A stretch of 64,000 bases of DNA, taken from Pelagomonas calceolata (lineage: Eukaryota). The position numbers and the translations under genes are program-made. Position 1 is the stretch's first letter, and each line of letters starts with the position of its first letter. Of this stretch, positions 47,291 through 56,325 are shown piece after piece. The notes under the pieces were generated by a model. The model did not search any database, was not told the DNA's origin, and saw only the letters and a list, made by a program, of their open reading frames with translations. The stretch covers positions 4,898,001 through 4,962,000 of the forward strand of contig CAKKNE010000001.1 of assembly GCA_918797485.1 (NCBI GenBank), in the 5' to 3' direction.

Positions 47291-47347
47291 GCGGAGAGCG
47301 CTACGACACGCGGAGAGCGCTACGACACGCGGAGAGCGCTACGACCC
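47291..47347 (+). repeat. 19-bp tandem repeat x3 immediately upstream of the ATG at 47351
   Basis: GCGGAGAGCGCTACGACAC repeated three times (last copy has one mismatch). Confidence 0.9.
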
Positions 47348-47350
47348 GCG

Positions 47351-48481
47351 ATGGACGTCCGCCCGCTCCTCGCGCAGCGCCGGGCGCCGCCAGCGCCCAA
47401 TCAGCACCTCTGGCGCGCGTTCGGCGCCGTCGCGCTGCTCCAATTCGTGACGCTGGCCGCGGTGCTCGCGTCGCGAACGGCTCCTGACGGCCGGAGGCAG
47501 CTGCTGGCCGACGAGCTCGAGCCGCCGTTCCGGAAAATACGCGAGGATATCGATCTCGGCGCCGACGAGCGGCGGCGGCTCAGCGGCGCGCTCTGGGGCC
47601 TCAAGACCGCGACGGCCGCCACCACGCTCACGAAGTTCATGGGTACCATGGTCCTCTGCGACACGTCGTCCGCGGCCATCACGGTGACGCTGCCGGCCGC
47701 GAGCGACATGTCCGAGCAGTCCGGCGCCTCGCTCCGCCACTACAAGTTCATCAACACGGGCAGCAACGACTGCACGGTCGCCCGCGCCGGGTCCGACACG
47801 ATCGTCACATCGACGCTGACCGCGACCTTTTCCGGCGGCGCGACGACGTCGACCTTCACGGGCACGGCCTTCACGCCCGCGGGGACGGTCTCGCAACCGA
47901 CCTTCACGGGAACGCAGTTCACGCCCGCCGGAACCATCTCAGCAATTACTCCCGCCGGCACCAACGACGCGCCGACGTTTACTGGTCAAGCGCACACCCC
48001 GACGTTCACCGGCGGTGCCATCACGAGTACGGTGACTCAGGGCACGATTACCACCGCCACGGTGTACACTGGGGCGGACGCCACGGCGACCACGACGGAC
48101 ACGGCGGTCGACGTCGTCACTGCGGTCGCGGCCAGCACCGTCGCGAGCGGGACCGCGAGCGGGACCATCTCGCAAATTACGCCGCAGGGAACCGTGGCCG
48201 CGCCGGTATTTAGTGGTACAGCGCACACCCCGACGTTCACGGGAACCGCGGTGACTCCAGGGGGGACGGTCTCGCAACCGACCTTCACGGGGACTCAGGT
48301 GACGCCCCAGGGCACGATTCAAACCGACACGCCCGGGGGCACGGTCGCGATCGTCAACGCCGCGACGGCGTCGACGGGCTTGACGGCGATCACGCTCAAG
48401 CCCGGGTCCTCGCTCGCGCTGGTGGGCGACGGCACGAGCGCCTGGTACCAGTACGGCGGGACGAGCATCGCCGTCGCGTAG
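47351..48481 (+). CDS. Membrane-anchored Thr/Gly-rich fibre-like protein, short paralog (8+8 modules)
   Basis: 376-aa ORF; single TM; RRQLL and RRRLS motifs; phage-fibre-like domain VLCDTSSAAITVTLPAAS...GSDTI // ITLKPGSSLALVGDGTSAWY split by FTG/PxG repeats. Confidence 0.85.
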   Translation: MDVRPLLAQRRAPPAPNQHLWRAFGAVALLQFVTLAAVLASRTAPDGRRQLLADELEPPFRKIREDIDLGADERRRLSGALWGLKTATAATTLTKFMGTMVLCDTSSAAITVTLPAASDMSEQSGASLRHYKFINTGSNDCTVARAGSDTIVTSTLTATFSGGATTSTFTGTAFTPAGTVSQPTFTGTQFTPAGTISAITPAGTNDAPTFTGQAHTPTFTGGAITSTVTQGTITTATVYTGADATATTTDTAVDVVTAVAASTVASGTASGTISQITPQGTVAAPVFSGTAHTPTFTGTAVTPGGTVSQPTFTGTQVTPQGTIQTDTPGGTVAIVNAATASTGLTAITLKPGSSLALVGDGTSAWYQYGGTSIAVA

Positions 48482-48783
48482 CAAGAGGTACTATACTTAT
48501 ATAGGGTAAGTACCTTGCGCGTAGGACCCCGCGTAACCCGAACGAAAATCAGGTGTACCTATCTCGTGGCGAGCGCTCGCAGGCCTCCCGACGACGGGTA
48601 GTCATCCAAAATGACGGCGCGAAGCCAGCGCCCAAGCACGAAGCCTGCGGTCCGGCGGAGGAGCGCTTTTGTGAGGGCTGCCGGTCGAGCAACGCTGCCC
48701 CACGCAGCCGCGATGGACCCGTGACACACCCATCATGGCGACCGACGCCAGGCATTGCCAGTGAGCGCCAGGCATTGACACCG

Positions 48784-50991
48784 ATGAAGGTAGCTTGCTC
48801 ACCCGAGGCCTGGCCCCCCAGGCGCCCCCCGGCGCCGTCGACGACGAGAAAGGTCTGCTCGCCCGTGGAGACCTGGCCCCTCCGGCGGCCCCCGGCGTCG
48901 CCCGAGGAGACCTGGCCCCTCCGGCGGCCCCCGGCGCCGCCGGCGCCCAACCGGCGCGTCTGGGGGGCCATCGGGGCCATCGTGCTGCTCCAGACGGCCA
49001 CGATCGCGGCGGTGCTCGCGCCGCGCCCCGAGACCGACGCCCGGCGGCGGCTGCTCGACGAGGAGATGATCGAGCCGCCGTTGCTCAAGGTCCGCGAGGA
49101 CCACGACCTCGGCGAGGTCGACGAGCGGCGACGGCTCAGCGGCGCGCTCTGGGGCCTCAAGACGGTGACGACCGCCACGACGCTCACGAAGTTCATGGGC
49201 ACGATGGTCCTCTGCGACACGTCGTCCGCGGCCATCACGGTGACGCTGCCGGCCGCGAGCGACATGGCCGAGCAGTCCGGCGCCTCGCTCCGCCACTACA
49301 AGTTCATCAACACGGGCAGCAACGACTGCACGATCGCCCGCGCCGGGTCCGACACGATCGTTACTTCTACCCTGACCGCGACCTTTACCGGCGGCGCGAC
49401 GACGTCTACCTTCACAGGAACGCAGTTTACGGCTACCTTCACCGGCGACCAGTTCACGCCCGTCTTTACGGGAACAGATTATACGCCAGCAGGGACCGTC
49501 TCCGTACCGACCTTCACGGGAACGCAGACGGCCCCGGCGGGCACAATCGGTGCGATTACACCAGCCGGCACAGTCTCGCAGCCCACGTTTACCGGCGACG
49601 CTTACACGCCTGAAGGCACCAACAATGCGCCAGCGTTCACGGGGACGCAGTACACGCCCACCGGAACCATATCGGCAATTACGCCAGCTGGAACCGTGGC
49701 CGCGCCGGTATTTAGTGGTACAGCTCACACCCCAACGTTCACGGGTGATGCAGTAACCCCAGCGGGAAGCGTGGCCGCGCCGGTATTTAGTGGTACAGCA
49801 CACACCCCAACGTTCACGGGTGATGCAGTAACCCCAGCGGGAGACGTGGCCGCGCCGGTATTTAGCGGTACAGCTCACACCCCAACGTTCACGGGTGATG
49901 CAGTAACCCCAGCGGGAAGCGTGGCCGCGCCGGTATTTAGTGGTACAGCTCACACCCCAACGTTCACTGGCGATGCAGTAACCCCAGCGGGAAGCGTGGC
50001 CGCGCCGGTATTTAGTGGTACAGCTCACACCCCAACGTTCAGTGGCGATGCAATCACAAGTACGGTGACTCAGGGCGCGATTACCACGGCCACCGTGTAC
50101 ACTGGGGCGGACGGCACGGCGACCACGACGGACACGGCGGTCGACGTCGTCACGGGGGTCGCGGTAAGCACTGTCGCGAGCGGGACCGCGAGCGGGACCA
50201 TCTCGCAAATTACTCCCGCTGGCACCAACGATGCGCCGGCGTTCTCGGGGACGCAGTTCACGCCCGCCGGTACCATCTCGCAAATTACTCCCGCTGGCAC
50301 CAACGATGCGCCGGCGTTCACGGGGACGCAGTTCACGCCCACCGGAAGCATCTCGGCGATTACTCCCGCTGGCACCAACAATGCGCCAGCGTTCACGGGG
50401 ACGCAGTTCACGCCCACCGGAAGCATCTCAGCAATTACTCCCGCTGGCACCAACGATGCGCCGGCATTTACTGGTACGCAGTTCACGCCCGCCGGAACCA
50501 TCTCGGCAATTACTCCCGCTGGCACCAACGACGCGCCGGCATTTACTGGTACGGCTCACACCCCGACGTTCACGGGTGATGCAGACACCCCAGAGGGAAG
50601 CGTGGCCGCGCCGGTATTTACTGGCACGGCGAAGGCGCCCGCCGGCACGGTCAGCCAGCCGACCTTTACCGGAGACGCGTTTACTGCGACATTTACTGGG
50701 ACGGACTACACCCCCGCCGGGACGATCAGCCAGCCGACCTTCACGGGCACCCAGACGGCGCCCGCCGGCACGATCGCCGCGATCACGCCCACGGGGACCA
50801 TCTCCGCGGTGACGCCCGCCGGCACGATTCAAACGGACAACCCCGGGGGGACGATCGCGATCGTCAACGCCGCGACGGCGTCGACGGGCTTGACGGCGAT
50901 CACGCTCAAGCCCGGGTCCTCGCTCGCGCTCGTCGGCGACGGCACGAGCGCCTGGTACCAGTACGGCGGGACGAGCATCGCCGTCGCGTAA
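48784..50991 (+). CDS. Membrane-anchored Thr/Gly-rich fibre-like protein, long paralog (27+27 modules)
   Basis: First in-frame ATG at 48784; same architecture and near-identical flanking domain as 47351-48481. Confidence 0.85.
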   Translation: MKVACSPEAWPPRRPPAPSTTRKVCSPVETWPLRRPPASPEETWPLRRPPAPPAPNRRVWGAIGAIVLLQTATIAAVLAPRPETDARRRLLDEEMIEPPLLKVREDHDLGEVDERRRLSGALWGLKTVTTATTLTKFMGTMVLCDTSSAAITVTLPAASDMAEQSGASLRHYKFINTGSNDCTIARAGSDTIVTSTLTATFTGGATTSTFTGTQFTATFTGDQFTPVFTGTDYTPAGTVSVPTFTGTQTAPAGTIGAITPAGTVSQPTFTGDAYTPEGTNNAPAFTGTQYTPTGTISAITPAGTVAAPVFSGTAHTPTFTGDAVTPAGSVAAPVFSGTAHTPTFTGDAVTPAGDVAAPVFSGTAHTPTFTGDAVTPAGSVAAPVFSGTAHTPTFTGDAVTPAGSVAAPVFSGTAHTPTFSGDAITSTVTQGAITTATVYTGADGTATTTDTAVDVVTGVAVSTVASGTASGTISQITPAGTNDAPAFSGTQFTPAGTISQITPAGTNDAPAFTGTQFTPTGSISAITPAGTNNAPAFTGTQFTPTGSISAITPAGTNDAPAFTGTQFTPAGTISAITPAGTNDAPAFTGTAHTPTFTGDADTPEGSVAAPVFTGTAKAPAGTVSQPTFTGDAFTATFTGTDYTPAGTISQPTFTGTQTAPAGTIAAITPTGTISAVTPAGTIQTDNPGGTIAIVNAATASTGLTAITLKPGSSLALVGDGTSAWYQYGGTSIAVA
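49684..50058 (+). repeat. 75-bp coding tandem repeat x5 (PAGSVAAPVFSGTAHTPTFTGDAVT)
   Basis: Five near-identical DNA units visible directly. Confidence 0.9.
50194..50562 (+). repeat. 75-bp coding tandem repeat x5 (GTISAITPAGTNDAPAFTGTQFTPA)
   Basis: Five near-identical DNA units; different sequence from the first array but same unit length and copy number. Confidence 0.9.
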
Positions 50992-52069: not shown

Positions 52070-52434
52070 GGTCTCTTTTCGTCGGTCTCCCTATCTCTGA
52101 GCGCCCTCTCCGCTTGGGTGGCTTTATTGTGCTTCTCGATCTCCGCGCTCAGCGCCGAGCAGATCGGCCTCGGGCCCGCCGCTCAGGGCAACACGCTGTG
52201 GGCTACGAGCTTGTATCCGCCCGAGGAGACGAGCTTCGCTGCCCTGAGCCGTGCGGATCGCTACAAAGCTCGTGCGGATCGCTGGTGGCACCCGGGCAGC
52301 TCTTCGGCCTCGCCTAGGCTATTTAGTAGAGTCGGCGCTGTCTGCATGAGACGCTGGGCTAGTAGCTTCCCCACTTGCGCTATGAATGGAGCTGCCAAGA
52401 ATGTACTGCGCAAGCATTCATACGATTAATATTA

Positions 52435-56213: not shown

Positions 56214-56325
56214 GTATTCCCAACGAGATTAACAATCATCATTCAACCGTACTAGTAGTATTCCCCAACGAGATTAACAATCATCATTCAACCGTACTAG
56301 TAGTATTCTCCAACGAGATTAACAA
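56214..56325. repeat. 45-bp AT-rich tandem repeat (about 2.5 copies) between convergent 3' ends
   Basis: Unit CAACGAGATTAACAATCATCATTCAACCGTACTAGTAGTATTCCC. Confidence 0.85.

What the first reader, a model, noticed from the sequence alone, without database searches (positions are those of the whole stretch)
49684..50562. Matched expansion of two different 75-bp arrays on opposite arms, with module blocks swapped relative to the short paralog
Seen: the long gene has five copies of a PFF unit before the tip and five copies of a different PPF unit after it, both 75 bp. The two arrays are not DNA inverted repeats. In the short gene the TISAITPAGTNDAP block is on the out arm and VAAPVFSGTAHTP on the return arm, the reverse of the arrangement beside the tip in the long gene. 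Inference: separate slippage or unequal-crossover events at two sites were retained only when copy numbers matched. This implies selection on protein-level pairing and shows that modules work on either arm.
Basis: partly seen in the sequence, partly recalled or inferred. Interest (0 to 1): 0.75.

Follow-up and report, generated by a model that had tools for sequence, protein, structure and literature searches.

The report
Self-pairing fold-back stalk in an alga
A marine alga expresses a protein whose outgoing and returning halves match each other unit by unit in reverse order, so it likely folds back into a long phage-fibre-like stalk whose length would change when both halves gain repeats together, though one wild copy of the gene has unequal repeat counts.

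Summary
The 5+5 arrays of 75 bp are real, expressed, and not DNA inverted repeats. They are the inner part of a 510-residue insert in a small head domain, built of F-x-G and P-x-G modules. The return arm is the exact reverse complement (F<->P) of the out arm, 26 of 26 modules, and all 27 Phe face a Gly on one gap-free antiparallel register. Phage tail-region proteins use the same code. There the arms covary in length, residue covariation falls on the predicted antidiagonal (24 of the top 24 pairs), and an 81-sequence AlphaFold model has mirror-placed strands. Selection on hairpin register is well supported. Strict 1:1 retention is not: a syntenic wild allele has 3+2 units (collapse not excluded). 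The 'swap' reduces to one 9-residue F module exchanged between direct-repeat cassettes flanking the tip, and the arrays were likely seeded by cross-arm copying. It works like the T4 gp37 needle without its iron-histidine core; no solved structure or paper with this code was found. Verdict: new variant of a known kind.

The parts
47351..48481 (+). Short paralog, 376 aa: hydrophobic segment aa 23-41, RRRL at aa 74, split head domain, 192-aa insert with code FFPFPPFF | tip | PFFPFPP
   Evidence: weakly expressed in X21/X22 (depth 0-3)
47804..48379 (+). Stalk insert of the short paralog; 7 of 7 modules complementary, one antidiagonal (i+j=490)
48784..50991 (+). Long paralog, 735 aa from the first in-frame ATG after the RNA 5' ends (48661-48679); poly-A after 51004
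48964..49020 (+). Single hydrophobic segment (predicted type II anchor or signal anchor)
   Evidence: Kyte-Doolittle 2.0 over 19 aa; role inferred
49126..49137 (+). RRRL motif just before the conserved mature region (candidate convertase site)
   Evidence: also in P0224 and P0226; cleavage inferred from recalled knowledge of dibasic sites
49138..49359 (+). First part of the head domain (ends GSDTI); 214 of 222 nt identical to the short paralog
   Evidence: profile of uninterrupted domains P0212-P0215 hits at E 9e-14
49360..49692 (+). Outer out arm, 13 modules FFFFPFPPFPFPP; its last 75 bp (49618-49692) are a PPF-type unit (7 of 75 differences to the return array at 50374; 37 bp identical to 50371-50407)
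49684..50058 (+). Array A: five PFF units of 25 aa; units 1-4 differ by 2-5 nt
50047..50196 (+). Thr/Val/Ala-rich tip hairpin; predicted turn at about 50116 (G-A-D-G-T), centre of the register
   Evidence: a similar tip in the code-less algal homolog P0226
50185..50559 (+). Array B: five PPF units of 25 aa; units 1-4 differ by 3-10 nt
50551..50850 (+). Outer return arm, 13 modules, exact reverse complement of the outer out arm; its first 75 bp (50551-50625) are a PFF-type unit (7 of 75 differences to array A at 49720 and 49870)
50851..50991 (+). Linker and second part of the head domain (LTAITLKPG...WY); 137 of 141 nt identical to the short paralog
   Evidence: weak profile match of this half on its own, E 0.09

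Best explanation
The two arrays are the inner rungs of a stalk whose return arm matches its out arm module by module in reverse, so the chain is predicted to fold back as one long antiparallel beta-hairpin, likely trimeric and displayed on the algal cell surface, and unequal copy numbers would be selected against because they break the register. Shown: the F/P reverse-complement code, the single register, expression, and cross-arm DNA identity. Strongly inferred: hairpin topology (covariation and model in phage relatives). Inferred by analogy with T4 gp37: at each level a Phe from one arm packs over a Gly from the other, so an F module must face a P module; three chains give a six-stranded needle. 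Long stalk about 60-85 nm, short about 20-30 nm, 6-8 nm per unit pair (my estimate at 2.3-3.3 A per residue pair). Inferred history: (1) one 9-aa F module was exchanged between the direct-repeat P-F-F cassettes flanking the tip; (2) template switching or conversion copied a return-arm piece into the out arm (first A unit) and an out-arm piece into the return arm (first extra B unit); (3) each array then grew and turned over by slippage on its own. A one-unit mismatch is probably tolerated for a time as a loop-out and then compensated. Likely role: a spacer that holds a small tip away from the cell (adhesion, decoy or spacing); untested.
For: 26 of 26 and 7 of 7 complement. 27 of 27 Phe face Gly on i+j=890 over 253 residue pairs with no gap; P0017 has a different code, 5 of 5. 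Full-length algal records with a tip: besides the window's own proteins, 14 of 15 are matched (12 are near-identical short types, so not independent). Phage or prokaryote relatives: 30 of 111 representatives are exact complements against 2.6 in arm-swapped controls, arm-length Spearman 0.74; 30 of 67 viral loci against 6.6; 25 of 33 independent close pairs change both arms in the same direction. MI-APC on 81 sequences: 24 of the top 24 and 64 of the top 100 pairs lie in the band i+j 433-441, which holds 4.3% of pairs; the code predicted 436. The AF2 model (pLDDT 72.6) has seven strand pairs mirrored at sums 437-438. P0047 and P0067 carry the stalk inside a Gp10_C (collar-fold) domain. In gp37, out-arm G921 packs on return-arm F970 of another chain (PMC6957217, passages).
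Against: L005 has 3 A and 2 B units, one unit unmatched. 3 of 9 pairs with tip identity >=90% differ in one arm only. 21 of 60 viral needles differ by one strict 13-mer core (degenerate motifs not inspected). A single-sequence AF2 model of the long protein folded as parallel beta-helix (pLDDT 49.6; Z up to 12.4 to beta-helices). Covariation and the confident model come from phage relatives, not the algal protein. No solved structure matches the stalk by sequence. No HxH metal motif. Surface location and cleavage are inferred from a hydrophobic segment and RRRL only.
Confidence: 0.8

Rival explanations
1. Hairpin stalk is right, but the 5=5 match is coincidence or only loosely enforced: both arrays drift by slippage and loop-outs of whole units are tolerated indefinitely.
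For: L005 is 3+2. Array B is about 2.3 times as diverse as array A (mean 7.7 against 3.3 nt among units 1-4), so they did not grow in step. L005 and the window use different A-unit variants. One-arm differences exist in phage pairs. Only two full-length long alleles are known.
Against: The outer 13+13 modules, themselves products of older duplications, are gap-free. 5 of 9 very close phage pairs show equal gains on both arms, up to 9 modules each (P0121/P0125). Older pairs are nearly all matched, as expected if mismatches are purged or compensated.
Confidence: 0.25
2. Each array folds on itself as a parallel beta-solenoid (Thr-rich, adhesin- or ice-binding-like), and the mirror code has another cause.
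For: Single-sequence AF2 model and its beta-helix matches; 26-31% Thr.
Against: Low confidence (pLDDT 49.6, no alignment). Covariation is antidiagonal; only 7 of the top 100 pairs sit at the repeat period. The alignment-based model is a hairpin. A solenoid gives no reason for an exact reverse complement.
Confidence: 0.07
3. The 5+5 count is an assembly artefact or a culture-specific expansion.
For: No other record with five units was found; the long protein is absent from the protein collection; environmental copies show 3 (L005) or 1 (partial P0013) A units.
Against: Raw reads span every exact repeat without joints; unit-specific letters are in 82-95% of reads; unitig boundaries match in two DNA runs, and the 449-bp unitig starting at 50436 recurs in two further runs. 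The runs may all be of the strain that gave the window, so a strain-specific expansion stays possible.
Confidence: 0.05
4. One DNA event (tip-spanning duplication or inversion) made both arrays at once, so no selection is needed.
For: Each array's unit has a close DNA copy on the opposite arm, so cross-arm recombination happens.
Against: The arrays are not inverted repeats. A tip-spanning duplication gives two tips, not matched arms. The arrays differ in diversity and vary separately in L005.
Confidence: 0.05

Closest known systems
Needle domain (D11) of the phage T4 long-tail-fibre tip, gp37 (PDB 2XGF); lambda Stf and Bas63 fibre tips
   Same: Chain leaves a small domain, runs out, turns at a tip and runs back; the insert sits within one domain (PMC6957217, PMC12609058, PMC7291167, passages read). 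Gly of the out arm packs on Phe of the return arm (G921/F970). Relatives with this code carry the stalk in a Gp10_C collar-fold domain and lie among tail-fibre genes in 3 of 4 loci annotated.
   Different: No HxH iron sites; a binary F/P module code instead; up to four times longer; the host domain here is not the collar but a different small domain; eukaryotic, with a hydrophobic anchor and RRRL motif; trimer not tested.
Uncharacterised phage tail-region proteins with TPxG/FxG stalks (P0027-P0203, L017-L096)
   Same: Same modules (7- and 9-residue spacing in P0027/P0028 identical to the alga's), same reverse-complement rule, matched gains on both arms.
   Different: Mostly alternating (PF)n codes with other N-terminal domains and tips; no membrane anchor; no Pfam or PHROG family for the stalk itself and none in the annotated phage collection.
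Algal RRL-leader split-head proteins without the code (P0226, P0233, P0230, P0236, P0238)
   Same: Same split head domain and a Thr-rich insert at the same loop; a hydrophobic N-terminal segment with an RRRL or RxL motif in four of the five; a similar tip in P0226 and P0233.
   Different: Their inserts (about 75 to 320 aa) have no F/P modules. That they are algal is inferred from the shared leader architecture.
Chemoreceptor (MCP) signalling-domain heptad classes
   Same: Length classes of a fold-back hairpin (PMC7184735, passages: classed by heptad number). That the classes arise by symmetric indels in both arms is recalled (Alexander and Zhulin 2007; not held).
   Different: Alpha-helical coiled coil, no homology, no tandem DNA arrays.

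Membership tests
T4 gp37-type needle | Out-and-back antiparallel chain inserted in one small domain | tested here: met
   Split head domain, single antidiagonal; covariation and model in relatives
T4 gp37-type needle | HxH motifs binding iron along the needle | tested here: not met
   His is about 1% of the insert, single His per AHTP module, no HxH
T4 gp37-type needle | Collar domain (PF07484 or Gp10_C fold) as host domain | tested here: not met
   No Pfam or PHROG match for either paralog; the head matches another domain. Met only in relatives P0047 and P0067
T4 gp37-type needle | Homotrimer with six-stranded barrel | not tested
T4 gp37-type needle | Structural match to 2XGF | tested here: inconclusive
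   VIA search of the relative's model listed only weak rows, best Z 4.9 (rmsd 3.9, 58 aligned) on the N-terminal domain
F/P-code phage stalk proteins (unnamed) | TPxG and FxG modules at 7-9 (or 13) spacing in reverse-complement order | tested here: met
F/P-code phage stalk proteins (unnamed) | Common descent of the stalk rather than convergence | tested here: inconclusive
   phmmer E down to 5e-23 but on low-complexity repeats; tips and host domains differ; algal relatives lack the code
T4 gp9/gp10 N-terminal-like domain (PF07880) | Profile match of the head domain | tested here: inconclusive
   P0214 hits phrog_958 positions 48-133 at E 9e-5; Atlas lead 0.83; no Pfam hit
Parallel beta-helix adhesins or ice-binding solenoids | Contacts at a fixed sequence offset (coil to coil) | tested here: not met
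   7 of the top 100 covarying pairs at offset 21-23 against 64 on the antidiagonal (tested on phage relatives)

The most novel reading that the evidence does not exclude
An ocean alga has grafted a phage-derived binary pairing code onto its own family of RRL-processed surface proteins and uses it as a length-tunable nanospike. Two unlinked 75-bp arrays act as one dial (6-8 nm per matched unit pair), alleles of about 20, 55 and 75 nm segregate in nature, and new rungs are written by copying each arm's partner sequence into the other arm: a protein palindrome that evolves like an RNA stem.
Probability: 0.3. Interest if true: 0.82.

Novelty: new variant of a known kind. Interest (0 to 1): 0.6.

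Why it matters
It gives a readable pairing code for a beta-stalk, so register and length can be predicted and designed from sequence alone. It makes compensatory evolution between two separate tandem arrays directly testable: count A and B units in long reads, and see how long a mismatched intermediate persists. It also points to an unstudied family of algal surface proteins with phage-fibre-like architecture, which could bear on how small algae meet viruses, bacteria or grazers.

Tried and rejected
No genome is held for the window, so other paralogs outside it could not be searched; none lie elsewhere in the window. Pfam, PHROG and PDB sequence searches of both paralogs: nothing of use (the designed-propeller hits at E>=0.01 are chance). 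The tip as query in metagenome contigs: no hit. GenBank phages: no match for the short protein or P0031. Complex prediction of a trimer: tool not available, no verdict. Foldseek with the single-sequence model: nothing at E<=0.001. VIA search with the alignment-based model: no match for the stalk, T4 gp37 not listed; this shows neither difference nor novelty. Logan contigs cannot count units: the joints are all short-gene contigs laid on the long gene; missing cover over B units 2-4 in a seawater run (X13) is only a hint. Records with a long leader and short stalk (P0007-P0011, L004) and tipless records (P0014, P0016, P0206, P0217) were set aside as probable assembly chimeras through shared repeats; L004 re-enters its own upstream DNA. 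Ordering duplications by a unit tree: differences too few (2-5 and 3-10 nt) and mosaic. Literature searches that found no description of this code or protein: (open-access library only; supplements not read). The original gp37 structure paper was not held.

Full report
1. Setting. The window is from a GC-rich photosynthetic eukaryote: a nearby gene is a fucoxanthin-chlorophyll protein (E 5e-62), and runs that hold the stretch are cultures of one organism and marine (meta)transcriptomes. I take it for a pelagophyte alga; that is recalled inference, no call names it. The finding lies in the second of two tandem paralogs, 47351-48481 (376 aa) and 48784-50991 (735 aa). Both have one hydrophobic segment, an RRRL motif, and then a nearly identical mature head (214 of 222 and 137 of 141 nt) interrupted by a Thr/Ala/Gly-rich insert of 192 or 510 aa. 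The long gene is transcribed in raw poly-A reads (depth 80-700 over the insert, poly-A after 51004); the short one hardly at all in those runs.

2. The observation. Two 75-bp arrays of 4.9 and 4.6 copies flank a 50-aa tip; phased from the P module they give five PFF and five PPF units. They are not inverted repeats (longest reverse match 10 bp). The count is supported. Reads of 151 nt exceed the longest exact repeat (83 bp) and show no joints or indels at 5%. Unitig boundaries simulated from the window (47316-47605, 47881-48111, 48451-48896, 48907-49161, 49303-49644, 50436-50884) recur in DNA-run contigs. All these runs may be of one strain.

3. What it is part of. The whole insert parses into modules ending F-x-G or P-x-G. 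Read backwards with F and P exchanged, the return arm equals the out arm in 26 of 26 modules (long; p about 2e-7) and 7 of 7 (short; p 0.03). Without the arrays it is still 13 of 13 (p 6e-4). All 27 Phe face a Gly and 26 Pro face a Gly on one antidiagonal (i+j=890) across 253 residue pairs without a gap; the short paralog (490) and a divergent homolog with another code (P0017, 450) do the same. A profile of uninterrupted head domains (P0212-P0215) matches the part before the insert at E 9e-14 and the part after it weakly, so the stalk is inserted in one loop of a small domain.

4. Relatives. Of 176 non-algal homologs, 173 had six or more modules. Among 111 representatives under 70% identity, 30 are exact complements against 2.6 (max 10) when arms are exchanged between proteins; arm lengths correlate at 0.74 (strict motifs miss degenerate modules). 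Of 80 viral loci, 72 had a complete ORF, 67 unique: 30 exact against 6.6. A stricter count gave equal 13-mer cores in 39 of 60 against 20.8, and 21 differed by one. Neighbours are tail or tail-fibre genes in 3 of 4 loci annotated. In P0047 and P0067 the stalk sits inside Gp10_C, the collar fold. Among 33 independent close pairs that differ in length, 25 change both arms in the same direction, 2 oppositely and 6 in one arm (pair order favours equal signs, and some one-arm rows are parsing errors). Of the 9 pairs with tips >=90% identical I read 5 as matched, 3 as truly one-armed, 1 as a parsing error.

5. Topology. On an 81-sequence alignment of the phage family (effective number 55), 24 of the top 24 and 64 of the top 100 covarying pairs fall on i+j 433-441, a band holding 4.3% of pairs; the code had predicted 436. 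Exchanging second halves among sequences removed the signal in 5 of 5 trials, which shows only that column make-up does not produce it. AlphaFold on the same alignment (pLDDT 72.6, pTM 0.31) gives strands mirrored at sums 437-438 (I saw secondary structure, not coordinates). Against this, the algal long protein folded from a single sequence gave a low-confidence parallel beta-helix. I weight that little, but no confident model of the algal protein itself exists. In T4 gp37 the chain doubles back to give a six-stranded needle (PMC12609058, PMC7291167, one passage each), and out-arm G921 packs against return-arm F970 of another chain (PMC6957217, passages). That supplies a physical reason why F must face P-x-G. 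The trimer was not tested.

6. One other full-length long allele was found: L005, syntenic, about 95% identical. Both arrays are shorter, but 3+2, one unit off. Its A array was resolved despite a 74-bp exact repeat, yet a collapsed B unit cannot be excluded without its reads. A partial record (P0013) has one A unit, return arm unknown. So copy number is polymorphic and moved the same way on both arms in the one informative allele, but 1:1 is not shown. Array B is more diverse than A (7.7 against 3.3 nt), and the two alleles use different unit variants, so the arrays turn over separately.

7. The swap and the origin of the units. In the short gene a P-F-F cassette lies on each side of the tip as a direct repeat; the long gene differs by exchange of the middle 9-aa F module (TNDAP type against VAAPV type) between them. 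The long gene reads B' A5 tip B5 A': a B-type unit precedes array A and an A-type unit follows array B, each 7 nt of 75 from its nearest array unit, with a 37-bp exact match across arms. The simplest history is template switching between homologous modules on opposite arms to seed each array, then slippage. This is inferred. Partner pairs are kept when arms are exchanged (TAHTPTF faces TQ[FY]TP.G in both genes), as expected for a two-stranded ribbon that can be flipped.

8. Wider family. A profile search of 1.84 billion representatives gave 61 hits; I read 16. Five (P0226, P0230, P0233, P0236, P0238) have the same split head and a Thr-rich insert without the code, four of them with a hydrophobic leader and an RRRL or RxL motif. 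The head also occurs uninterrupted in phage-type fibre proteins (P0242, P0244). So the anchored fold-back architecture is older than the code in this lineage; whether the code came from a phage or arose again is open.

9. Novelty. The architecture works like the gp37 needle but fails its defining HxH and collar tests, so it is not filed there. Nine literature searches found no account of this code or protein; subscription papers and supplements were not seen. Earlier notes of this scan describe fold-back phage fibres with other codes (unchecked leads). That lowers the surprise of matched arms as such, and leaves the F/P code and its use in a eukaryote as what is new. Papers seen only as passages: PMC6957217, PMC12609058, PMC7291167, PMC3004832 (needle about 150 by 25 A), PMC12724248, PMC7184735, PMC12168098, PMC6851490 (not relevant).

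10. Verdict. Observation confirmed; interpretation partly supported; best explanation 0.8; new variant of a known kind; interest 0.6.

Noticed in passing
window 49360-50850: G+C at fourfold sites is 0.74 in the non-redundant stalk (0.49 in array A) against 78 of 78 in the head (p 6e-9) and 0.92-0.99 in three neighbours (0.73 and 0.85 in two others). Identical peptides on opposite arms often use different codons; possibly selection against tip-deleting recombination.
   Followed up: partly
window 49800: An A>C letter in 12-18% of RNA reads matches no unit in the window; error, minor allele or unseen copy.
   Followed up: no
window 48859-48941: A 39-bp repeat (2.1 copies) in the long gene's cytoplasmic leader; its copy number differs among P0007-P0011 and P0016.
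   Followed up: no
P0230, P0236, P0238: Split-head proteins with inserts of about 270-320 aa rich in Thr/Val/Ser/Asn and no F/P code: probably other long fold-back stalks with a different pairing rule.
   Followed up: no
P0152, P0240, P0124: Stalks with an all-F arm facing an all-P arm (or the reverse), the simplest form of the code; P0152 has 10 Phe-Gly pairs on one antidiagonal.
   Followed up: partly
P0022, P0024: Partial algal records with a third stalk type (P0022) and a short return arm carrying one extra B unit (P0024); further paralogs or alleles, or chimeras.
   Followed up: no
window 47291-47350 and 56214-56325: A 19-bp repeat (3.2 copies) directly before the short gene's ATG and a 45-bp AT-rich repeat (2.5 copies) downstream of the light-harvesting gene.
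   Followed up: no
window 52074-52156: An 83-bp stretch similar to part of the coding region of the 51002-52069 gene lies just upstream of it (seen as a second match of L005).
   Followed up: no
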